From a virus: 50,578 nucleotides of DNA. Below the pieces are notes generated by a model. The model was not told the origin of the DNA and made no database searches. It worked only from the letters and a program-made list of their open reading frames with translations. The stretch is from UHGV virus genome UHGV-1367765. The stretch is one strand, 5' to 3'. Positions 3,906 to 38,414 of this stretch are shown in pieces. Each line of letters opens with the position of its first letter. Positions within the stretch are counted from its first letter, which is position 1. Position numbers and translations under genes: made by a program.

Positions 3906-4378
3906 ACCTCAATCTCTCTGACCGTTCCGCCTGCTTCTTTGAATTTTGCAATCAGGCTGTCAGCCTTATGCTCGAACTGACCATAACCAGCGCCCGGCAG
4001 TGAAGCCCAGATATTGCTGCAACGGTCAATTGCCTGACGAATATCACCGCGATCAATCATCGGTAAAGCGCCACGCTCCTTAATCTGCTGCAATGCCACA
4101 GCATCCTGGCTTTTCGGAGAGAAGTCTTTCAGAGCAAGCTGCTTACGGTAAGCATCCCACCAGCGTGAAAGAAGCTGATAACGTCCGGCGGCTGTTGATT
4201 TGAGTTTGGGGTTTAGCGTGACACGTTTGCGAGGGTGATCGGAGTAATCAGTGAACAGTTCACCACCAACAATAACATCATAACCGTGGTTACGTGTCGG
4301 TTGTCGCCCGTTATCCGTTCCTTCTGACCATGCCACCATATCCAGGAAAGCTTTACGCTGGGAATTTAGTGCCTGCAT
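3902..4378 (-). CDS. R: endolysin R (lambda-type lytic transglycosylase)
   Basis: 158 aa, near-identical over most of its length to lambda R ([19 protein letters not shown]...). Confidence 0.9.
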
Positions 4379-6330: not shown

Positions 6331-6754
6331 AGCTGTGTGGCGAAGTAACCACTCTTAACAGCATAACCAATTTTTTACGTACGTAAACCTCTAAACAATA
6401 TTTGTGAGAATGATATCGAGTGTTCAAAACACCACCACAATCACATAAGGAAAAATAAACAAATAATCATTAAATAATTTCCGACGTTATTTTCAATGAG
6501 TTTAAATTAAAGAGATGATTTATAGAACACTTATTAATAACAACCTTTAATATAATTTAGCTACCAAATTTATTTTCTTTCAGAGAATAGTCATGTACAG
6601 CATGCAATAGAAAAAGTTCAGATAAAAATAGAGATCTAGATCACAATTTAAATAAGAATCTAAAACTTATATCTTGAATTAATCACATTGATTAGATGAA
6701 TATTTGTCGCGCAGGGCATCATTTTTTAATAAATGTTCAAAAAAAGGTCTCACG

Positions 6755-7852
6755 ATGAAAAAATTAACAGTGGCAATTTCTGCTGTAGCTGCATCAGTAC
6801 TGCTGGCGATGTCTGCTCAGGCAGCAGAGATTTATAATAAAGACAGTAACAAGCTGGATCTGTACGGAAAAGTTAATGCTAAGCACTACTTCTCCTCTAA
6901 CGAGGCAGATGATGGTGACACTACTTATGTTCGTCTGGGCTTCAAAGGCGAAACCCAAATCAACGATCAACTGACTGGTTTCGGTCAGTGGGAATACGAA
7001 TTCAAAGGCAACCGTGCTGAATCTCAGGGTTCTTCCAAAGATAAAACCCGTCTTGCCTTCGCTGGTCTGAAATTCGGTGACTACGGCTCCATCGATTATG
7101 GTCGTAACTACGGTGTAGCATACGACATCGGTGCGTGGACTGACGTACTGCCAGAATTCGGTGGTGATACCTGGACTCAAACCGACGTATTCATGACTCA
7201 GCGTGCAACTGGTGTTGCAACTTACCGTAATAACGACTTCTTTGGTCTGGTTGATGGCCTGAACTTTGCTGCTCAGTATCAGGGCAAAAATGACCGTAAC
7301 GATTTCGAGAACTACACCGAAGGTAACGGTGATGGCTTCGGTTTCTCTGCTACCTATGAATACGAAGGATTCGGCATTGGTGCGACCTATGCAAAATCTG
7401 ATCGTACCGACACTCAAGTCAATGCAGGGAAAGTTCTTCCTGAAGTATTTGCTTCCGGTAAAAATGCAGAAGTTTGGGCTGCAGGTCTGAAATATGACGC
7501 TAACAACATTTACCTGGCCACTACCTATTCTGAAACCCAGAATATGACGGTGTTTGCTGATCACTTCATTGCTAATAAAGCACAGAACTTCGAAGCTGTT
7601 GCACAATATCAGTTCGATTTCGGTCTGCGTCCGTCCGTTGCTTACCTGCATTCTAAAGGAAAAGACTTGGGTGTTTGGGGTGATCAGGACCTGGTTGAAT
7701 ATGTTGATGTAGGTGCAACTTATTACTTCAACAAAAACATGTCTACTTTCGTTGATTACAAAATCAACCTGCTTGACAAAAATGACTTCACTAAAGCACT
7801 CGGTGTAAGCACTGACAACATCGTTGCTGTAGGATTGGTTTACCAGTTCTAA
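6755..7852 (+). CDS. nmpC: outer-membrane porin, NmpC/Lc (OmpC/OmpF/PhoE family), apparently intact
   Basis: 365 aa with signal peptide [23 protein letters not shown] and porin motifs; near-identical to E. coli NmpC as recalled; sits between Q and the lysis genes on the opposite strand, as in DLP12. Confidence 0.9.
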
Positions 7853-16229: not shown

Positions 16230-16891
16230 GCCCCTACATCAAAACCACTGATGTATTCGTTATCAATATCAAACCCAAATAATTTAGAACCCTCGGAAGG
16301 TGTTTCAACCGAAGGCGTTTCAACGTCACCGGCCCATACACCAGCTGCTTTAACGGTGAGATAGCCCTGTTTGATAGCGGCGATCAGTTCGAGAGAGACA
16401 TCAGCAATATCGGTTTCCGGGAATACCCAGACCGATATCGTCATGTCCTGGTTGTCGACGATCTGCATCCTCAGGCCTGAGCCTGCGGTAGCAGCGTCAA
16501 GGATGGGAGGCAGAGAGTCGTTCCGACCATCCCAGTTGTTGATAGCGATTTTCGCTTTCAGAATGATGCGGTACGTCTCATCACTCAGCGTCGTATAGCC
16601 ATAATCAGGATCATATGGCCCTTGCCAGATGCCCTGGTCATATCCAAGCCCGTCAGTGTCCCAACTAAAATAAACGCCGCTAATTGGCTCGCTGACTATG
16701 CGACTACGACCAATCCACAGACCGAGCGTGTCGAGCTGCACGCCGACCGCCGTATCGATATCGAAGGCTGTTACAAGCCCTGACATAGTGCTGGACACAT
16801 CAATCAGCGGGCGAGTACTCAGATCTATATGGTCAAAAAAGAGTGGCTTGGTAGCGTGGTAGTTCGTGATAAGTTCGGTGTATTTGCTCAT
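16211..16891 (-). CDS. tail protein (DUF2313 / Mu gp48-like)
   Basis: Position between the baseplate J-like gene and the fibre; start taken at internal ATG (MSKYTELI). Confidence 0.55.
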
Positions 16892-18087
16892 GAGGTCACC
16901 GTGATAGTGACGTGACTCGCAACGCATGACGCAGATTCGTCATAAGCAATATCGATATTTCCGCTTGCGACTGAGTCAGAGGATTTGCCGATGAGCAGCT
17001 CCTGAATGTCGTAATAGCGAGCACTGCCTCCGCTTACCACGCCAAGGTTTGCCGGGGAATAAATACGACTCAGCAGAACGTCATCGCCAATTGCCAGGCC
17101 ATTTATATAATCGGCAACAGCCTGTTTTATCTGCTCGCCGATTTGAGATGTATACCCGGTAAAAACTTTCAGGGTAATGGCTACAAAAATTGGCACATCG
17201 GTAGAACGCGAAAAACTGATGACGTGAGGATTACCGTAAGTATCCGGCACCGTGACAGAAGTTGTCCCGTAGGTTGCCGTTCCCTGTCCTTTATTCCCCC
17301 TGATGGTCTGGGCTATTTCGGTAACATCTCCACCATCGACGATGGCGGAAATTGAGTGCGGCGGCAGCCCGTTGCTGTCGGTTGCCCCTGTGTCGTTCTC
17401 ATACAGCTTGTGACGTGTCACGCCAGCAACGTTAGCTATTGCACCGTCGACACTTTCAAACGGTGTGATCGATGGTAGCGCGACGCTTTGCCCCTGCCGA
17501 ATGCGCAGCTCTGCGTCGGTTTCTGCTGGTGAACCGACAGTAGCCGCTGCTGGGTTGGTTACCGACACCCAGCCGCGAGTCGGTGTGTTAATGGTGGTAA
17601 TAGTCCCGGCCATCGCCGCAACCGAACCGCTATTCGCACATGTGGCCGTCACCAGCACAGTACCATCAACCCCGATTGCTACACTCGCGGGAAAATTCCA
17701 GATAATGCCGTTTTTATCCCGTGCGGAGCCATTCGTGATAGTCGTGCCCGCCGTACCGGTTAACAGAAGGTCAGCAGTAGAGTTTGTCGCTACTTTTCGC
17801 GTGATCCCGTTAATTTTCACATTGCTGCTAAGCGCTGCGGCCTGCGCTGTCGTCGGTGAAAACGAGTTGTAGATCTCGATAGCGGTATTGTTAGCATCAT
17901 GCACAGCCAGAGCCACCAGCGCGACCATCTGCCCGTCTTTGCTGTCTGGTTCTAGGTAGGCATCACTACCGTAAATCTGCCTGAAATAGCTGGTCAGTGT
18001 ATCTAGGATTGTCTGGTAATCAGGCGCACTAATCCCCTGGGCGGTTACCGTTGCCGATAGCCCCAGCGTGTCGAGGTTCAAAGCCAT
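16888..18087 (-). CDS. baseplate J-like protein (Mu gp47 / P2 gpJ family)
   Basis: 399 aa; position and composition consistent with baseplate J. Confidence 0.7.
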   Translation of the reverse strand: MALNLDTLGLSATVTAQGISAPDYQTILDTLTSYFRQIYGSDAYLEPDSKDGQMVALVALAVHDANNTAIEIYNSFSPTTAQAAALSSNVKINGITRKVATNSTADLLLTGTAGTTITNGSARDKNGIIWNFPASVAIGVDGTVLVTATCANSGSVAAMAGTITTINTPTRGWVSVTNPAAATVGSPAETDAELRIRQGQSVALPSITPFESVDGAIANVAGVTRHKLYENDTGATDSNGLPPHSISAIVDGGDVTEIAQTIRGNKGQGTATYGTTSVTVPDTYGNPHVISFSRSTDVPIFVAITLKVFTGYTSQIGEQIKQAVADYINGLAIGDDVLLSRIYSPANLGVVSGGSARYYDIQELLIGKSSDSVASGNIDIAYDESASCVASHVTITVTS

Positions 18088-18441
18088 TTATGCCTCGCTT
18101 GTTACAGTCGTCTGGCCGTAGATTGTGTCAATGGAGGAAGTGAAAGTGACGCGGCGGCTGGTGCCGTCATAATTGGTATCGAAGGAAAGAATCGACAGAA
18201 CGCCCGGCGTGTCCTGTATGCGTTCGCGTATAGCCAGGATGTAGACGTCTGATCGCTGTTTCCCAAGCACTGACTGAACATACGGCGTGCCTTCCGTCAG
18301 ATCGAGAAACCACTGACCGCGCCAGAGCTCGAAACGGGTTTTTACGGCCTGGGCGACACATTCCGGACTGTCGATAAGGAAGGTGTCGTCACCTTGCCCG
18401 AAAGTGTAATCGCCGTCAGCATCTTCTCGTCGGTATCGCAT
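18088..18441 (-). CDS. baseplate wedge protein (Mu gp46 / P2 gpW, GPW/gp25 family)
   Basis: 117 aa, adjacent to the J-like gene. Confidence 0.65.
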   Translation of the reverse strand: MRYRREDADGDYTFGQGDDTFLIDSPECVAQAVKTRFELWRGQWFLDLTEGTPYVQSVLGKQRSDVYILAIRERIQDTPGVLSILSFDTNYDGTSRRVTFTSSIDTIYGQTTVTSEA

Positions 18442-19181
18442 TATTGCGGCCCTCCAGTAGTTCCCCCGCCTGTCTGAACTCCGCCATGTTTATGCGTGGC
18501 GACACTTATACCTGAAGCTGTCACATCATTCGTTACCGTAACCGGCCCAAGCATCGTCGCAGTACCACCACTTTCTCCCATTCCCTGAGACAGATTGCCA
18601 TTAATCGTTACGTTGCCGTTCAGCGTGATAGTCGGGGATGTGATTGTCGTTCCACCTTCAGCCGTAGCCGTGAGCTGGCCCGGTGTTTGAACGGTGATGT
18701 TATGTCCTGCGGAAACCTCTACGAACGCCGCACCATCATCGGTTCGCAGCTGCGCGGCGCTGGTACTGATACCGCTGATTTTTTGCGCTTGCGACTGCGG
18801 GCCAACGATGGCGAACGCATCAGATAAGTCATGCTGGCGCGGGTCGACGGTCTCCTGAACGCCGCCGCTCTGCCACCAGAAATCGATGCAACGGTCGGCA
18901 AAGATCAGCAGGCACTCATCGCCTTCTTTTACCGGAAAGGTCAGCGTGCAACCGCCTCCGCGCGGGAAGATGACAGGCACATCCACCAGCGGTTTTAATT
19001 CGGTGGAGTCGTCGCCAACAATACCGCGAAGCGCCACCTCTACTGTGCAGGTTACAGCGTCAGGATCGAACGACTGAATGATGCCAGGCATCGCTACGCG
19101 CATCTGAGTAGACACCGAATCGGCAATGGCCTGCGCGGTCTGCTGCTCGCCGCCGATCTGTGATTGAGTAGGAATTGGCAT
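18441..19181 (-). CDS. baseplate spike / assembly protein V (Mu gp45-like)
   Basis: 246 aa with a Gly/Thr-rich repetitive C-terminus typical of spike proteins. Confidence 0.65.
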   Translation of the reverse strand: MPIPTQSQIGGEQQTAQAIADSVSTQMRVAMPGIIQSFDPDAVTCTVEVALRGIVGDDSTELKPLVDVPVIFPRGGGCTLTFPVKEGDECLLIFADRCIDFWWQSGGVQETVDPRQHDLSDAFAIVGPQSQAQKISGISTSAAQLRTDDGAAFVEVSAGHNITVQTPGQLTATAEGGTTITSPTITLNGNVTINGNLSQGMGESGGTATMLGPVTVTNDVTASGISVATHKHGGVQTGGGTTGGPQ

Positions 19182-19192
19182 AAAAACCCCAT

Positions 19193-19216
19193 AAAAAAAC
19201 CAGCCGAAGCTGGTTT
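19193..19216 (-). terminator. Rho-independent terminator (minus strand) just upstream of the spike gene
   Basis: CCAGC-cgaa-GCTGG hairpin followed by a run of 7 T on the minus strand. Confidence 0.45.
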
Positions 19217-19403
19217 GGTATCAATTATCTCTTAGTAACTAAGCTACATCAGTGTGAAGTAAGGCTTTTCCGCTGCAATGGCACATATTCACAAGGTGTA
19301 TTAGGATATATTTGCAACAAGTAAGCATTAAAAATCAATTTCAGCCATGAAGCCGCCATAGAGTGGACCTGCACCATCGCATTCTTGACTACAGGAGTAA
19401 CAA

Positions 19404-19694
19404 ATGGGCTTTAGATTTCGCAAAAGAATCCGGATTGCGCCCGGACTCGCGATCAACATTAGCAAAAGCGGAGTAAGCACTTCAATTGGTGGTAAAGGTT
19501 CCACCATTAACATCGGGAAAAAAGGCGTAAAGATGACAAATGGCCTTCCCGGCACGGGGCTGTCGCATACCACTAACCTTTACTCTCCCGGGAAATCGAC
19601 AGAAAAAAAACAACTTACTCATAAGCAAAAAATAATTAGAAACATCCTGTTCGTAATTATTGTGTTTATTATAATTAAAGCTCAATATTTTTGA
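19404..19694 (+). CDS. DUF4236-like small membrane protein (inserted gene, opposite strand to the tail operon)
   Basis: MGFRFRKRIRIAPGLAINISKSGVSTSIGGKG signature; C-terminal hydrophobic helix; AGGAG RBS. Confidence 0.6.
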   Translation: MGFRFRKRIRIAPGLAINISKSGVSTSIGGKGSTINIGKKGVKMTNGLPGTGLSHTTNLYSPGKSTEKKQLTHKQKIIRNILFVIIVFIIIKAQYF

Positions 19695-19699
19695 CGCAT

Positions 19700-19730
19700 G
19701 CCCGCCTATCTGGCGGGCTATTTTACTTTT
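19700..19730 (+). terminator. Rho-independent terminator after the DUF4236 gene
   Basis: GCCCGCC-tatct-GGCGGGC followed by TATTTTACTTTT. Confidence 0.45.
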
Positions 19731-20071
19731 CGGCAGTCGTATGTTGCATACTGACGCGGCGCATTCATGCTGGCTTGCAGCCACTGGACATTGAGAATGG
19801 CTTTTCCGTTGCGCCCAATGAACTCCATTCCCACCCAGCGACCGGGTTGATCGGTAGCAACAACCCACTCAAATTTTACATTGTTATAATCACCTTCTTT
19901 TTTCAGAAAAGTGATTTTTTGAGTTTCTGGTTTTGCGCCATTAATTCTTGCAAGCCCATCATCCGCCCAGTGCACCCTGTAGTTACCACATTGTGAATCA
20001 GCAAATGCACTCAAGGATAAAAACGAAGTCAGCAGAAAAATTACGGCTGCTACACGCTTCACAATATTCAC
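19718..20071 (-). CDS. small secreted protein with signal peptide (inserted gene in the tail operon)
   Basis: N-terminus VAAVIFLLTSFLSLSAFA then a mature domain with two Cys; GTG start directly after the upstream stop. Confidence 0.45.
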   Translation of the reverse strand: MNIVKRVAAVIFLLTSFLSLSAFADSQCGNYRVHWADDGLARINGAKPETQKITFLKKEGDYNNVKFEWVVATDQPGRWVGMEFIGRNGKAILNVQWLQASMNAPRQYATYDCRKVK

Positions 20072-20072
20072 C

Positions 20073-21137
20073 TCAATAGTTGGTTTTCAGCATGGCATTC
20101 TGGCTGTAAAGCTCGCGAGCCCCACGCGCAAAACACATCAAATCCATGTACCACGCCTGACCTCTGGTGTCGCCAGTATAGTCGATAGCTTTGACGATAT
20201 AAACGCCATCTGTCGCAATGCTGGCAGCCTGTGACGTTGTGCCGGTCAGTACGCGGTTGCCGTTCTCTTCTGTTTCGGTGATGCGACCGGGCGACTGTGC
20301 TATTTCGCTATTACCGAGCGCGGCGCGGTACACCGAAGCCTGATCGAGCTGGATAAGACCATTAATACGGATGTTTGGGTTTATCAGGCACCGCACGTTT
20401 ACTCCGCCGCCCATCGTTTGTTGCGGCATACCGATCAGGCCAGTATCGGCATTCAACACAATGGCTTCGTGAATATATTTATCCTCCGGCACCATCTGGA
20501 CCTGACCATCCACCAGCTGCCATGTCGCTTTGCACTGCGCAGCAATATTATCCATCACGTTACGGGTGGATGAATAAATCGCACGGCCACGAGGAAACAC
20601 GGTATCAGGAAAATCGCCGGTAATGCCCTGTGTCACGCCGAACGCGTTGAAATCCTGCATCGTCGCCCGGTGCAGATCCGCAACGGTATAGCCAGCGGCA
20701 AGCGTGGTGATGGTGGTCGCATAGAGGAACGCTTCGTGATCACCAATGGCCTGAATCAACACCCAGGAATCCGTAATGTTGTCCTTCCCGGTGACGGTGA
20801 AGCGAATATCACCGTCAAAAATCAGGCCGTAGTTCTGACCGTTCACCTGCCCTATCTGGTCTGGTGAAATCTCCCGGGACACACCAACCTGGCTCGCATC
20901 AACATCCGGCGCTATACCGTCATACCCGGCAATGATGCGAATTTTTGCAAACTCCTGCCCCAGTATCTTGTTCGTGGTATCGGTCGAAAGGTTGTAAATT
21001 TTTACGTTCGCCACTCGCGGCCAGCGTGTATCTGCCCACTCGATCTGGAACGTGACCTTAAAATCAGACAGGGAAACGCCCTGCCCGTTCTGGTCCAACA
21101 GCTGCAACTCAAAATGGCGCATCCAGTTAAGAGACAT
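20073..21137 (-). CDS. tail/baseplate hub protein (Mu P gp44 / P2 gpD-like)
   Basis: 354 aa between the post-tape-measure genes and the baseplate genes. Confidence 0.55.
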   Translation of the reverse strand: MSLNWMRHFELQLLDQNGQGVSLSDFKVTFQIEWADTRWPRVANVKIYNLSTDTTNKILGQEFAKIRIIAGYDGIAPDVDASQVGVSREISPDQIGQVNGQNYGLIFDGDIRFTVTGKDNITDSWVLIQAIGDHEAFLYATTITTLAAGYTVADLHRATMQDFNAFGVTQGITGDFPDTVFPRGRAIYSSTRNVMDNIAAQCKATWQLVDGQVQMVPEDKYIHEAIVLNADTGLIGMPQQTMGGGVNVRCLINPNIRINGLIQLDQASVYRAALGNSEIAQSPGRITETEENGNRVLTGTTSQAASIATDGVYIVKAIDYTGDTRGQAWYMDLMCFARGARELYSQNAMLKTNY

Positions 21138-21139
21138 TT

Positions 21140-21445
21140 CTACTCCTGTACGAAAATGAGGTGGCTGTATGTGCCGAGGTTGGTTTTGGTGGGCTCGTCT
21201 GGTGCGCCCTTATCGGTCGCCACCACCAGCGCGCCATCAATGCCAAGCTGTGGATATTGTCGTAATAGGTTCACGCCGGTCAGTAGAGGTACGCCAGAGA
21301 GAAGCGCGGCACCGCCGCTATCCATCACGTCCATAATCCAGCCAGCCGCATCACGCCAGATGATCCTGAGTGTATACGTGGTATTGCCCAGCAAAACGCG
21401 GAACTGCTGATTGTCAGGAGAAAGCGGTATTTCGTTAAACTGCAT
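21140..21445 (-). CDS. putative tail protein
   Basis: Co-linear in the tail operon; no recognisable motif. Confidence 0.35.
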   Translation of the reverse strand: MQFNEIPLSPDNQQFRVLLGNTTYTLRIIWRDAAGWIMDVMDSGGAALLSGVPLLTGVNLLRQYPQLGIDGALVVATDKGAPDEPTKTNLGTYSHLIFVQE

Positions 21446-21446
21446 A

Positions 21447-22049
21447 TCATCCCCCGAATGCTGATGTAACGCTTCCGCCCAGCTGGCTCAGCAAGGATTC
21501 GTTTGGCGGTGTAGTGGATTTCATCCCGGAATTCTGCACCGCCGATGTGCTGACGCCATCCTGCATATCTGATTTATCTGCAACGGTGACATTTTTTGTC
21601 TGCGTTATGATGACTTCACGCAGGGTAAGCGTGCAGTTCAGCACGTTCTCGCTGGTTTTATCGGTCGTCACCTCGATGGCGCGCACCAGCATATTGCTGT
21701 ACACCCGCTTGCCAGTCACCACATCGAACGGCACCCGAGAGGACTGGAGATCCAGCAATTGCTGATAAGTCTCTTTCGGGCTCAGTCCGGCGCTGAGGCC
21801 GATTGAAGATGTATCGATGAAGTCCAGCAACGAACCGCCACCAGCGAAGCCGCATTCCATTGTGACTTCGCTGGGACGCTTATACGCATGATCGGCGATG
21901 AAACCCGACGCGCTATTCGTTGTTGGCTTCTCCACCGGATGCTCAGTAATTTCGAGCGCATCAGAATGCTTTTCGGAGACGACCACGCTGGGGATCAGCA
22001 GGCCAATTCGCCGGGATTGCTGGCGAAAAATCGCTGATAAAATATCCAT
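21447..22049 (-). CDS. putative tail protein following the tape measure gene
   Basis: Start overlaps the tape measure stop; position analogous to Mu N / P2 U. Confidence 0.35.
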   Translation of the reverse strand: MDILSAIFRQQSRRIGLLIPSVVVSEKHSDALEITEHPVEKPTTNSASGFIADHAYKRPSEVTMECGFAGGGSLLDFIDTSSIGLSAGLSPKETYQQLLDLQSSRVPFDVVTGKRVYSNMLVRAIEVTTDKTSENVLNCTLTLREVIITQTKNVTVADKSDMQDGVSTSAVQNSGMKSTTPPNESLLSQLGGSVTSAFGG

Positions 22050-24130
22050 TATCTCGGTCCTGCGGGGAGTTGCTGGGTTAACTGTGAATTCACGCCCTTT
22101 TGACGGTCAACAGTCAAACGGGCAGCTTCACGCGGATCGGAAACACCGTGGATGTTAATATTCGTTTCCTGCTGAATCACCGGGGCGCTGGTGGGCATAT
22201 TGCTCATTACTTTCGGAATGTAGTTGCGCGTTTCCTGCGGCATTAGCCCCATTCCATAACGCTTAACATTCCCGATCCCCCAGTTATATGATGCCAGTGC
22301 TTTGCTAAGGTCTCCGCCGTTCTGCCGCAACAGCTGGCTGAGGTACTTAGCGGCTGCCTGAGCTGACTTTTCCGGGTCGAATACATCATTCCCACGCAGG
22401 CCCATGTCGCGCGCCGTGCCATCCATAAACTGAAACAGACCTTTCGCGCCTGCGCCGGACACAGCGAACTGGTTACCACCCGACTCGGTGATCGCCACGC
22501 TTTTCAACAGGCCAGCAGGCAGCTGATAAAGAGATTCCAGCTTATTGAACAATGGCCCCATCCAGTCGAGCAAAACCTTGCCCTGCGCTGTGGCTTGTGG
22601 GCGTTTAACCGACTGCGCTCGCTGCTCCGGCTCCAGTCCCATCTCCTGAATTTTTCGCTGGATTTGCTCATCAGTGAAAAAGTCTTTGCCGGGATTTTCC
22701 TTTATCAGCGCCTCATATGCCTGCTGCCTTTCAGGTACGATATTGCTGCCTATACCGCCAATCGACGCCATTTCTTCACTGGTGGTCGGCGTATTGTTGG
22801 CAGGAATGAACATAAGCAACCAGGGATTCTTGATTGCCAACTGAGCGATCCCCTGCGCCAGCTTACCCAGCCCACCAATAGAGCCGCCAATTGCCTTACC
22901 GAGCCCCATAAATCCGGCGACAAGTCGCCCGATACCAGTGAGCATGGAGAACAGCTTCGCACCGGCCAGAAAGCCAAACAGGATGGTAAGCGTATTTTTC
23001 CAGCCGCCGAGGTTGTCCTTGAGCTCCAGAAACTTATCGCGCAGCCACTTGAACACCTTCTTTGCCTGCTCAATTTCTGGCTGCCATTTGGACCAGTCAA
23101 TCAGGCTTTTACCGCCCTCTTTCCACGTCTGGTAATCGTCGTACAGCAATCCGATCGCCAGAATCAGTGTGGTGATAATTCCAATCGGGGATTTCAGGAA
23201 CGCAGAATTAAGCAGACGCCATGCGACCAGTAGAGCACCGAATATTTTCAGCAGATTTTTACTGCCATCATCAAGACGCTTCCACCAGTCAATGACAGAG
23301 CCAGCGCCCTGTATAAGCCGCCACGCCATTCGTGTGAAGGCGTTTGCAAGCCAGATCACGCCCTTAATAACTTTGGTCAGAGTCTCTTCAATCTTCGGGA
23401 AGTTGTCGAGGATGCGCCGCCGCAGGCTGTCCAGCGAACCAGCCAAGCCACCAGCGAGATTTGAGCCGATCTTGTCCCGCATAATGCCAAACAGCGACGT
23501 AAGCCCGTGCATGGACGTCATGAATTTGTTGGACTGAACGGCTGCCTTATCAGCGTTGAACCCCGTCTTTTGCAGCATAGACTGGTAATCGGCGGTAAAG
23601 CCATTCATGCCGCGCCGCATCGCCATCAGCGTGTTTTCATCGATACCGAGCATCTGCGCGTATTGCTTCGCGCGGTAATACGGCATGTTGTTGAGCTTTT
23701 GCCCAACGCCAGTAAAGATGGCAGCAGTATCACGCATCTTTCCGCTGGCATCGCGGGTCTGGACACCAAGACGGTTCAGGAACCCTTCCGCCCCCGGATT
23801 GCTACGCATGAAGCCAGCCAACCCTTCGAGGGAGGACATGGCCGACTCAGCGCTGGCGCCAGTTTGCGATGCGGCATAGCCCAGCGCTTTGATGCCCTGG
23901 ACGCTGGCCCCCGTCCGCTGGGATGCCCAGTAAATTTTATCCAGACCATTCGCGATCTGGGTGGTAAATCCGACAATGCTCAGCGCTGCGCCTTCCACCA
24001 CCGCGCCGACCTTCATAACGTTTGCGGTAACGCCTTTCAGCACGGCTTCAAACTTATTAGCGCCAGCCTGATCGATATCGAATCCCAGCGAAACAAGGAA
24101 ATCTTTAATCGTATCTGCGTTACCGCTCAT
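22049..24130 (-). CDS. tail tape measure protein with C-terminal lytic transglycosylase (SLT) domain
   Basis: 693 aa, Ala/Gly-rich helical body; C-terminal ...ITESGGNQFAVSGAGAKGLFQFM... SLT motif. Confidence 0.75.
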   Translation of the reverse strand: MSGNADTIKDFLVSLGFDIDQAGANKFEAVLKGVTANVMKVGAVVEGAALSIVGFTTQIANGLDKIYWASQRTGASVQGIKALGYAASQTGASAESAMSSLEGLAGFMRSNPGAEGFLNRLGVQTRDASGKMRDTAAIFTGVGQKLNNMPYYRAKQYAQMLGIDENTLMAMRRGMNGFTADYQSMLQKTGFNADKAAVQSNKFMTSMHGLTSLFGIMRDKIGSNLAGGLAGSLDSLRRRILDNFPKIEETLTKVIKGVIWLANAFTRMAWRLIQGAGSVIDWWKRLDDGSKNLLKIFGALLVAWRLLNSAFLKSPIGIITTLILAIGLLYDDYQTWKEGGKSLIDWSKWQPEIEQAKKVFKWLRDKFLELKDNLGGWKNTLTILFGFLAGAKLFSMLTGIGRLVAGFMGLGKAIGGSIGGLGKLAQGIAQLAIKNPWLLMFIPANNTPTTSEEMASIGGIGSNIVPERQQAYEALIKENPGKDFFTDEQIQRKIQEMGLEPEQRAQSVKRPQATAQGKVLLDWMGPLFNKLESLYQLPAGLLKSVAITESGGNQFAVSGAGAKGLFQFMDGTARDMGLRGNDVFDPEKSAQAAAKYLSQLLRQNGGDLSKALASYNWGIGNVKRYGMGLMPQETRNYIPKVMSNMPTSAPVIQQETNINIHGVSDPREAARLTVDRQKGVNSQLTQQLPAGPR

Positions 24131-38258: not shown

Positions 38259-38334
38259 TGGTGCTGGTTAACGGACTTGAACCGCTACCCATTCGCTTAC
38301 AAGGCGACCGCTCTACCATTGGAGCTAAACCAGC
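38259..38334 (-). tRNA. tRNA-Thr (anticodon UGU inferred)
   Basis: Hand-folded cloverleaf: 7-bp acceptor stem, D-stem GCTC/GAGC, anticodon loop CTTGTAA, T-loop TTCAAGT, 3' ACCA. Confidence 0.55.
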
Positions 38335-38339
38335 ATGTT

Positions 38340-38414
38340 TGGCGGGACAGCGTGGACTCGAACCACGATAAGAAGGTTAACAGCCTTCCGTAATGACCTT
38401 TATACGACTGACCC
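38340..38414 (-). tRNA. tRNA-like gene, anticodon GUU (Asn) inferred; possibly degenerate
   Basis: Cloverleaf with anticodon loop CTGTTAA, T-arm CGTGG-TTCGAGT-CCACG, 3' GCCA, but a U-U mismatch in the acceptor stem and a 3-bp D-stem. Confidence 0.4.

What the first reader, a model, noticed from the sequence alone, without database searches (positions are those of the whole stretch)
19193..20071. Terminator-flanked insert inside the tail operon: DUF4236 membrane protein on the opposite strand plus a secreted protein
Between the baseplate hub gene and the spike gene sit two non-structural genes: a plus-strand DUF4236-type protein with a C-terminal transmembrane helix, and a minus-strand secreted protein. 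The DUF4236 gene has its own RBS and is bracketed by a plus-strand terminator and a minus-strand terminator just before the spike gene. This is a classic moron layout, expressed independently of late transcription. Neither product has an assigned function.
Basis: partly seen in the sequence, partly recalled or inferred. Interest (0 to 1): 0.58.

Follow-up and report, generated by a model that had tools for sequence, protein, structure and literature searches.

The report
Swappable cargo slot in prophage baseplate
Between two baseplate genes of an E. coli prophage lies a swappable cargo slot, here holding a backwards-facing gene for a small membrane protein of unknown function, next to a separately inherited exported protein; this is an ordinary prophage add-on gene ("moron").

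Summary
Both ORFs, the PF14020 match, the C-terminal membrane helix, the signal peptide, the ribosome-binding site and both terminators are present.

The "two-gene insert" reading is only half right.
- ORF117, the exported protein, follows the hub gene in nearly all relatives, including sequenced Klebsiella, Salmonella and E. coli phages. It diverges fast: median 79% nt identity, against 95-96% for hub and spike.
- The minus-strand terminator before the spike gene is a conserved flank in every relative, whatever the cargo. Two of its seven stem pairs show compensatory changes.
- Only the DUF4236 cassette is variable cargo. It occurs in 19 of 53 related E. coli prophage regions at about 98.6% identity. 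Elsewhere it is replaced by Phd/Doc or other small, often membrane or exported, proteins.
- Both genes are GC-poor (40-45% against 53-57%).

The layout copies the HK97 gp15 and gp23 morons. Phage-borne small DUF4236 membrane proteins recur at tail-tip and baseplate junctions of several unrelated tail types, but chromosomal homologues do not.

My best guess, which is inferred, is a lysogen-expressed inner-membrane protein that excludes superinfecting phages at DNA entry. No promoter was found and expression is untested. It is a new member of a known kind, of modest interest.

The parts
20073..21137 (-). Baseplate hub gene, forming the upstream (5') border. Its last ~25 codons are already mosaic among relatives.
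   Evidence: phrog_196 E=8.6e-83; Pfam E217_GP41 weak; alignment of the 3' end shows homology breaking before the stop codon.
19718..20071 (-). ORF117, an exported ~93-aa mature protein (likely start GTG 20062). It has a Sec-type signal peptide, two invariant Cys and a predicted 8-stranded beta-barrel. It holds a conserved position after the hub gene, but its sequence diverges fast and is GC-poor.
19700..19718 (+). Intrinsic terminator of the DUF4236 transcription unit. It overlaps the ORF117 stop codon and has no U-tract on the minus strand.
   Evidence: dG -16.7, z -4.4. Equivalent hairpins plus T-runs follow the DUF4236 homologues in Hafnia and Klebsiella.
19404..19694 (+). DUF4236 gene, 96 aa. 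The product has a basic N-terminal six-strand beta-meander (net charge +12 over residues 1-72), a linker and a C-terminal transmembrane helix, so it is tail-anchored with a predicted N-in topology.
   Evidence: PF14020 73.6 bits; AF2 model; hydropathy; homologues carrying a C-terminal SH3 domain after the TM helix.
19393..19397 (+). Shine-Dalgarno AGGAG, 6 nt before the DUF4236 ATG. It lies within a TTGACTACAGGAG motif shared with the Klebsiella homologue.
19217..19403 (+). AT-rich leader (GC 39.6%) that must contain the DUF4236 promoter, which was not identified.
   Evidence: Only weak 8/12 sigma-70 matches at 19278-19312; GC; an 11-bp indel variant exists in relatives.
19197..19216 (-). Conserved intrinsic terminator immediately 5' of the spike gene. 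It forms the downstream border of the cargo slot in all relatives.
   Evidence: Alignment of 8 relatives keeps 7 pairs, 2 of them with compensatory changes, with an invariant U-tract and AUGGGGUUUUUAUG.
18441..19181 (-). Baseplate spike gene (gpV-type N-domain plus Apex), forming the downstream border.
   Evidence: Pfam E=1.4e-41 and 5.9e-09.

Best explanation
The hub-spike junction of this Q-antiterminated, Pam3/E217-type myovirus prophage holds two separate accessory modules.

Module A is ORF117. It was acquired long ago and is now fixed in the lineage. It encodes an exported beta-barrel protein, abuts the hub gene on the late strand, and diverges quickly.

Module B is a cargo slot bounded by the 3' end of ORF117 and by a conserved terminator just before the spike gene. 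Cargo is exchanged by recombination in these conserved flanks. In this window the slot holds a 'reverse moron': the DUF4236 gene with its own SD and terminator.

Inferred operation. In the lysogen a promoter in 19217-19403 drives the gene, and its product inserts into the inner membrane by its C-terminal helix, with the basic beta-meander facing the cytoplasm. On induction, Q-modified late transcription reads through both terminators, runs antisense across the gene and silences it.

Most likely function, also inferred: superinfection exclusion at the DNA-entry step (tape-measure or spike insertion into the inner membrane), as for HK97 gp15.

My confidence differs by layer: about 0.85 for the anatomy and the moron/cargo-slot reading, and about 0.3-0.35 for the exclusion mechanism.
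For: Cargo slot.
- Eleven related E. coli loci carry at least six different contents between ORF117 and the spike gene: DUF4236, Phd/Doc, a 604-bp cassette with an EACC1-like ORF, and 106-aa, 210-aa and 371-aa proteins.
- The DUF4236 cassette is in 19 of 53 genomes, once each.
- Its median identity to the window is 98.6%, against 79.4% for ORF117, 94.7% for spike and 96.2% for hub.
- GC is 40-41% against 53-57% in the tail genes.

Independent transcription unit. The gene is reverse-oriented and has an SD and a strong terminator. The same architecture surrounds the 52-58%-identical homologues in Hafnia and Klebsiella prophages in the same slot.

Read-through. A Q antiterminator is annotated in the 98%-identical prophage.

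Precedent.
- HK97 has the gp15 moron followed by a terminator right before the TMP gene, and the 'reverse moron' gp23.
- gp15 is a prophage-expressed inner-membrane exclusion protein (PMC3594210).
- Genes antisense to lytic operons are transcribed in lysogens (PMC7067206).

Linkage to the entry machinery.
- About 68 of the top 80 IMG/VR DUF4236 loci lie at tail-tip or baseplate junctions: hub|spike, TMP|M, K|I and before TMP.
- phiCD38-2 gp15 lies between the tail assembly chaperone and TMP.
- In Acinetobacter Ab11510-phi the gene lies between the tail tube gene and TMP.
- Pseudomonas and Leclercia prophages give further examples.

Topology. The N-terminus is basic, and SH3-bearing homologues carry that domain after the TM helix.
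Against: - No convincing promoter was found.
- There are no expression or phenotype data, and the searchable literature says nothing on DUF4236 function.
- There is no PADLOC hit and no informative structural relative.
- The IMG/VR sample is ranked by similarity to the query, so it is dominated by a few lineages.
- In a species-representative genome sample only 6 of 80 loci are in recognisable tail modules. Neighbours of 24 small-type loci show integrases, RadC, methylases and housekeeping genes, but no tail families.
- In deposited virulent or jumbo phages the domain sits elsewhere, for example near nrdA or after terL.
- In several phages the gene is co-oriented with the tail genes, so lysogen-only expression is not general.
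- HK97 gp15 is unrelated in sequence and has the opposite topology.
Confidence: 0.45

Rival explanations
1. The DUF4236 protein has a phage-intrinsic role in the lytic cycle, for example aiding tail-tip or tape-measure function at the membrane, setting lysis timing, or protecting progeny. On this view it is not a lysogen-expressed host-benefit gene.
For: The gene is tightly linked to tail-tip genes in several tail types. It is co-oriented with the tail operon in phiCD38-2, Acinetobacter Ab11510-phi and Pseudomonas prophages. No lysogenic promoter was identified.
Against: About two thirds of closely related prophages, and the sequenced relative Citrobacter phage Omnitron, lack it and carry unrelated cargo instead. 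In the myovirus lineages it is reverse-oriented, so late transcription would be antisense to it. Many homologues are chromosomal and outside prophages.
Confidence: 0.15
2. The DUF4236 protein is an abortive-infection or toxin-like membrane effector. Its oligomerising beta-meander on the inner membrane would depolarise or permeabilise the cell when triggered by an infecting phage.
For: It is a small, basic, tail-anchored membrane protein with an open beta-sheet that should pair with partners or with itself. The slot also carries a Phd/Doc toxin-antitoxin pair and an EACC1-like conflict-system component in relatives. Convergent antisense transcription could keep it in check.
Against: There is no partner antitoxin or sensor gene in the cassette and no PADLOC match. 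The gene is intact in all 26 loci compared, with no sign of counter-selection.
Confidence: 0.15
3. The gene is a lysogenic-conversion factor unrelated to phages. It would encode a small envelope or stress-response membrane protein that changes host physiology. Its position in the tail module would then only reflect where lambdoid late operons tolerate insertions.
For: Homologues are widespread in chromosomes and other mobile elements across Proteobacteria, Firmicutes, Bacteroidota and Actinomycetota, with varied C-terminal domains. Morons in general have diverse functions (PMC3594210).
Against: The gene has been placed independently at five or more different junctions, all within tail-tip or baseplate modules of unrelated tails. 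That is hard to explain by permissiveness alone.
Confidence: 0.15
4. ORF117 and the DUF4236 protein form one two-gene functional module, a periplasmic partner with an inner-membrane partner, inserted together. This is what the first reader's 'insert' implies.
For: The two genes are adjacent and convergent, and both are GC-poor. They co-occur in E. coli, Hafnia, Klebsiella and Serratia prophages.
Against: ORF117 occurs with at least five other cargos. DUF4236 occurs without it in three settings: the Hafnia loci with a 158-aa protein, the lambda-like contexts, and the diverged myovirus loci such as L183. A nearly invariant cassette sits beside ORF117 alleles only 74-100% identical.
Confidence: 0.07

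Closest known systems
HK97 gp15 moron (Juhala et al. 2000; Cumby et al. 2012)
   Same: A small inner-membrane protein gene sits inside the tail operon of a Q-antiterminated temperate phage. It is followed by an intrinsic terminator placed just before the next essential tail gene. It is absent from relatives, and it is expressed from the prophage to block DNA entry of superinfecting phages (PMC3594210).
   Different: There is no sequence similarity. gp15 is 62 aa with an N-terminal TM helix and belongs to the YebO family. The protein here is 96 aa with an N-terminal beta-meander domain and a C-terminal TM helix. The gene here is reverse-oriented, and its junction is hub|spike rather than chaperone|TMP. 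Its function is untested.
HK97 gp23 'reverse moron' between tail genes I and J
   Same: An accessory gene lies on the strand opposite to the tail operon, with its own terminator. A further terminator sits just upstream of the next tail gene.
   Different: The protein is unrelated and soluble-looking, the junction is different, and its function is also unknown.
Prophage and satellite defence hotspots (for example the P2/P4 hotspots of Rousset et al. 2022, as cited in PMC11364771)
   Same: A fixed position is bounded by conserved genes and holds alternative accessory cargo in related elements, including a toxin-antitoxin pair.
   Different: The slot lies inside the baseplate gene block. Its cargo is mostly small membrane or exported proteins with no match to known defence systems.
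Periplasmic or outer-membrane self-exclusion proteins encoded near entry genes (T4 Spackle, T5 Llp, phi80/N15 Cor). This comparison concerns ORF117 and rests on my own knowledge.
   Same: ORF117 is a small exported protein encoded next to the genes of the cell-puncturing apparatus. It diverges fast, as expected for a protein in an arms race.
   Different: There is no sequence or fold relationship. ORF117 is an avidin-like 8-strand barrel with no significant PDB or BFVD relative. It has no lipobox, and neither its target nor its timing of expression is known.

Membership tests
Moron (Hendrix/Juhala definition) | Present in some closely related phages and absent or replaced in others | tested here: met
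   The DUF4236 cassette is in 19 of 53 related E. coli prophage regions, and at least five other cargos occupy the same slot. This is NOT met for ORF117, which is present in nearly all relatives.
Moron (Hendrix/Juhala definition) | Base composition differs from the surrounding genes | tested here: met
   The cassette is 40-41% GC and ORF117 44.6%, against 53-57% for the tail genes. GC3 is 0.42 against 0.58-0.63.
Moron (Hendrix/Juhala definition) | Own transcription terminator | tested here: met
   The terminator at 19700-19718 has dG -16.7, z -4.4 and a U-rich tail. Analogous terminators follow the Hafnia and Klebsiella homologues.
Moron (Hendrix/Juhala definition) | Own promoter | tested here: inconclusive
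   Only 8/12 sigma-70 matches lie upstream and no conserved -35/-10 appears across homologues. The reverse orientation implies a promoter must exist.
Moron (Hendrix/Juhala definition) | Expressed from the repressed prophage | not testable with these tools
   This needs RNA-seq or TSS mapping of a lysogen. The only support is general precedent for antisense-oriented prophage genes (PMC7067206).
Pfam PF14020 (DUF4236) | HMM score above the gathering threshold | tested here: met
   73.6 bits against a cut-off of 27, covering profile positions 1-54 of 55.
HK97 gp15 / YebO superinfection-exclusion family | Sequence homology and an N-terminal TM topology | tested here: not met
   The gp15 sequence has an N-terminal TM helix and no resemblance to the protein here, which has a C-terminal TM helix. 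Only position and layout are analogous.
PHROG 3443 (ORF117) | HMM match over the full length | tested here: met
   E=8.9e-46, residues 5-117 on profile positions 2-114 of 115. The family has no assigned function.
MliC/PliC-type periplasmic lysozyme inhibitors (considered for ORF117) | Sequence-family match, or a specific structural match to MliC/PliC barrels | tested here: not met
Known anti-phage defence systems (PADLOC) | Match to any PADLOC model | tested here: not met
   Neither DUF4236 nor ORF117 gives a hit at E<=0.1.

The most novel reading that the evidence does not exclude
Small tail-anchored DUF4236 proteins may be a widespread, unrecognised family of superinfection-exclusion (DNA-entry blocking) proteins. 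On this reading, selection keeps them linked to the tape-measure, hub and spike genes in temperate phages of Enterobacterales, Pseudomonas, Acinetobacter and Clostridioides. The hub-spike junction, together with the fast-evolving exported ORF117, would then be a dedicated 'entry-immunity' locus of this myovirus lineage.
Probability: 0.25. Interest if true: 0.62.

Novelty: new member of a known kind. Interest (0 to 1): 0.37.

Why it matters
If the inference holds, a domain of unknown function found across bacteria would gain a first functional lead. It would point to a phage-exclusion role at the inner membrane, with a ready set of natural "allelic" prophages, with and without the cassette, for testing.

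The work also defines a clean, conserved cargo slot inside a baseplate operon. Its borders are the ORF117 3' end and a covarying terminator before the spike gene. This slot could be mined for other small envelope-acting anti-phage genes that defence-system catalogues miss.

As it stands, however, it is an ordinary moron layout with an uncharacterised product.

Tried and rejected
1. PADLOC scan of both proteins and of alternative cargo: no hits, apart from a weak SngB match for one relative's ORF.
2. Fold searches.
   - The DUF4236 model matches only fragments of beta-barrels and Rhs shells.
   - The afdb50 library was unavailable.
3. PDB profile searches: nothing significant.
4. Rfam on the whole window: only two tRNAs and no known sRNA in the slot.
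5. Repeat search for insertion footprints around the cassette: only chance-level short repeats, so no transposition signature.
6. Promoter hunting by consensus scan, relaxed scan and cross-genus comparison of upstream regions: nothing convincing. The candidate ORF117 promoter inside the hub 3' end (20203-20175) is confounded by coding conservation.
7. Literature: one irrelevant mention of DUF4236. The C. difficile CDHS-1 transcriptome paper gives no gene-level information on its DUF4236 gene.
8. The idea that DUF4236 is always tail-linked was rejected. Genome-wide sampling shows many non-phage contexts.
9. The idea that ORF117 and DUF4236 form one module was rejected on independent assortment.

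Full report
**Observation**

The tail and baseplate operon runs on the minus strand. It comprises the tape measure with an SLT domain (22049-24130), a Dit-like gene (21447-22049), the plug (21140-21445), the hub (20073-21137), the spike (18441-19181), the sheath initiator (18088-18441) and gp47/J (16888-18087).

Two ORFs lie between hub and spike.

- ORF117 (19718-20071, minus strand) abuts the hub stop codon. The likelier start is GTG 20062, preceded by GAGGTG; PGAP chose this start in a 98%-identical genome. Its N-terminus is a typical Sec signal peptide ending AFA|D.
- The 96-aa plus-strand ORF (19404-19694) matches PF14020 at 73.6 bits. AGGAG lies 6 nt upstream of its ATG. Its C-terminal hydrophobic helix is clear (KD 3.05 over residues 77-91; AF2 helix 73-95).

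Both terminators are credible.

- The plus-strand terminator at 19700-19718 has dG -16.7 kcal/mol, z -4.4 and a U-rich tail.
- The minus-strand terminator at 19216-19197 has a UUCG loop and a U7 tail, and ends 15 nt before the spike ATG.

**Comparison with relatives**

The 2.8-kb region is found in 53 of 5426 complete E. coli genomes and in Citrobacter phage Omnitron. The 98%-identical prophage in strain CUPF09 is lambdoid in regulation (Q antiterminator, lambda-type holin) and has a Pam3/E217-type contractile tail.

Eleven related loci show that the stretch between hub and spike has two parts.

- A homologue of ORF117 follows the hub gene in all but one locus. In that locus (L009) a 371-aa lipoprotein replaces it.
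- The same family (phrog_3443, E=8.9e-46) holds this position in sequenced phages Mulock, SEN34, ST405-OXA48phi1.2, vB_EcoM-683R1 and RCIP0034, and in Hafnia, Klebsiella and Serratia prophages.
- The stretch between the ORF117 stop and the spike ATG is variable. It holds the DUF4236 cassette, or Phd/Doc, or a 604-bp cassette with a plus-strand EACC1-like ORF, or 106-aa or 210-aa proteins.
- I saw no empty slot.

**The terminator before the spike gene**

All relatives keep the sequence AAAAAC(C/T)CCATAAAAAAA next to the spike ATG, followed by a hairpin. In an alignment of eight loci the 7-bp stem is retained, and two of its pairs show compensatory double changes. The terminator is therefore a conserved flank of the slot, not a property of the DUF4236 gene.

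In a Q-antiterminated late operon it would be read through during lytic growth. In the lysogen it would insulate the downstream baseplate genes from cargo promoters. This is an inference resting on the established behaviour of lambdoid Q.

HK97 shows the same design.

- The gp15 moron is followed by a terminator 13 nt before the TMP gene.
- Terminators lie just before genes I and J.
- An annotated 'reverse moron', gp23, lies between I and J.

**The DUF4236 cassette as mobile cargo**

The cassette (19217-19717) occurs in 19 of the 53 genomes, once each.

Across 26 cassette-bearing loci, median nucleotide identity to the window is as follows.

| Segment | Median identity to window |
|---|---|
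| DUF4236 cassette | 98.6% |
| ORF117 | 79.4% |
| Spike | 94.7% |
| Hub | 96.2% |

A nearly invariant cassette thus sits beside very different ORF117 alleles, so the two assort independently.

Both are GC-poor: the cassette is 40-41% and ORF117 44.6%, against 53-57% for the tail genes. ORF117 therefore looks like an old, fixed and fast-evolving acquisition.

No flanking repeats suggest transposition. Exchange by homologous recombination in the conserved flanks is the simplest reading.

A decayed remnant of the prophage in strain EC596 still carries both genes at 100% identity.

**The proteins**

ORF117 models confidently (pLDDT 83.6) as an eight-stranded beta-barrel behind its signal peptide, with two invariant cysteines.

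- A PDB profile search gives borderline avidin hits.
- BFVD gives nothing significant.
- The family is confined to Enterobacterales.

The DUF4236 protein models as a six-strand antiparallel beta-meander, a linker and a C-terminal helix. It has only generic structural matches and no PDB relative.

- Its first ~30 residues are almost identical between E. coli, Klebsiella and Leclercia homologues, while the linker and TM segment vary.
- The N-terminal part is strongly basic (+12).
- Homologues of 167 aa carry SH3 domains after the TM helix. This fits a topology with the N-terminus in the cytoplasm and the C-terminus outside.

**Where DUF4236 genes sit**

Homologues at 52-58% identity occupy the same hub-spike slot, in the same reverse orientation and each with its own downstream terminator, in Hafnia and Klebsiella prophages and in Klebsiella phage RCIP0034.

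Other small homologues lie at other tail junctions.

- Between TMP and gpM of a lambda-like Leclercia prophage.
- Between gpK and gpI/J, or just before TMP, in Pseudomonas prophages.
- Between the tail assembly chaperone and TMP in C. difficile phage phiCD38-2.
- Between the tail tube gene and TMP in Acinetobacter phage Ab11510-phi.

Of the 80 best IMG/VR loci, about 68 lie in recognisable tail-tip or baseplate modules of several lineages.

This linkage is not universal.

- That IMG/VR sample is ranked by similarity to the query.
- In a species-representative genome sample only 6 of 80 loci are in recognisable tail modules.
- The neighbours of 24 small-type loci from other Proteobacteria are integrases, RadC, methylases and housekeeping genes.
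- In virulent or jumbo phages the domain sits elsewhere.

**Mechanism**

Shown:

- the cargo-slot anatomy;
- the independent assortment of cassette and ORF117;
- the compositional signature;
- the SD and terminator;
- the predicted tail-anchored architecture.

Inferred:

- a lysogenic promoter in 19217-19403, which was not found;
- expression in the lysogen;
- silencing by antisense late transcription on induction;
- the function itself.

I commit to superinfection exclusion at the DNA-entry step as the most likely function, at about 0.3-0.35. The reasons are the HK97 gp15 precedent, the repeated independent placement next to tape-measure, hub and spike genes, and the envelope-directed nature of the other cargo in these slots.

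The rivals are a lytic-cycle role, an abortive-infection effector, and phage-unrelated lysogenic conversion, each at about 0.15. A joint ORF117-DUF4236 module is unlikely.

For ORF117 the best guess is a periplasmic protein aimed at the entry apparatus or its receptor, analogous to Spackle, Llp or Cor. This rests only on its position, its export signal and its rapid divergence.

**Verdict**

The finding is real. It is a textbook moron arrangement, with the refinement that only the DUF4236 cassette is the moron.

- ORF117 is a conserved, fast-evolving resident.
- The spike-proximal terminator is part of the conserved slot.
- No function is known for either protein.

The novelty is modest: it is a new member of a known kind. 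The recurrent tail-module linkage of phage-borne DUF4236 genes is a testable lead.

Noticed in passing
window 19718-20071, with loci L001-L010 and L114-L137: ORF117 is by far the most divergent gene in the baseplate block, with median 79% nt identity against 95-97% for its neighbours. The homology break begins inside the last ~25 codons of the hub gene. This suggests diversifying selection or allele swapping of an exported protein.
   Followed up: partly
L002 2341-3161 (E. coli ECONIH5); L003 2498-2848; L009 2347-3462: Alternative cargo in the same slot includes a Phd/Doc toxin-antitoxin pair, a plus-strand ORF with a threshold-level EACC1 (conflict-system) match, and a 371-aa lipoprotein that replaces ORF117. 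Most other cargo has N-terminal TM or signal sequences.
   Followed up: partly
L011 (E. coli EC596, NZ_CP156718 3591146-3596660): A decayed remnant of this prophage runs from the tail fibre genes to a truncated hub gene, which abuts integrases and a type I R-M/Zorya island. It still carries ORF117 and the DUF4236 cassette at 100% identity to the window.
   Followed up: no
window 38259-38414 (minus strand): Two adjacent phage-borne tRNA genes, Thr(TGT) and Asn(GTT), lie between the lysis cassette and the Q region of the prophage.
   Followed up: no
window 3927-4357: A 431-bp stretch is 86% identical to the lysis-gene region (annotated as glycoside hydrolase/lysis protein) of the related prophage in L012. 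This hints at a second prophage or remnant in the first 14 kb of the window.
   Followed up: no
L034-L113 (GTDB genomes) and one search hits: The 55-aa DUF4236 domain is always N-terminal but is fused to very different C-termini. These include a bare TM helix; TM plus SH3; zinc ribbons plus TM; multi-TM/TM2 domains; and 200-880-aa soluble or membrane regions. The pattern is that of a reusable N-terminal module.
   Followed up: partly
L018/L019 (Hafnia) 6418-6894: In some Hafnia prophages the post-hub position holds an unrelated 158-aa protein that also has a signal peptide. The position directly after the hub gene therefore seems reserved for exported proteins, even when the ORF117 family is absent.
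   Followed up: no
window 19385-19397 and L021/L031 upstream regions: The 13-nt motif TTGACTACAGGAG just before the start codon is shared by the E. coli and Klebsiella DUF4236 genes (52% aa identity), although the rest of their leaders is unrelated. Its significance, whether as 5'-UTR element or common ancestry, is unknown.
   Followed up: no
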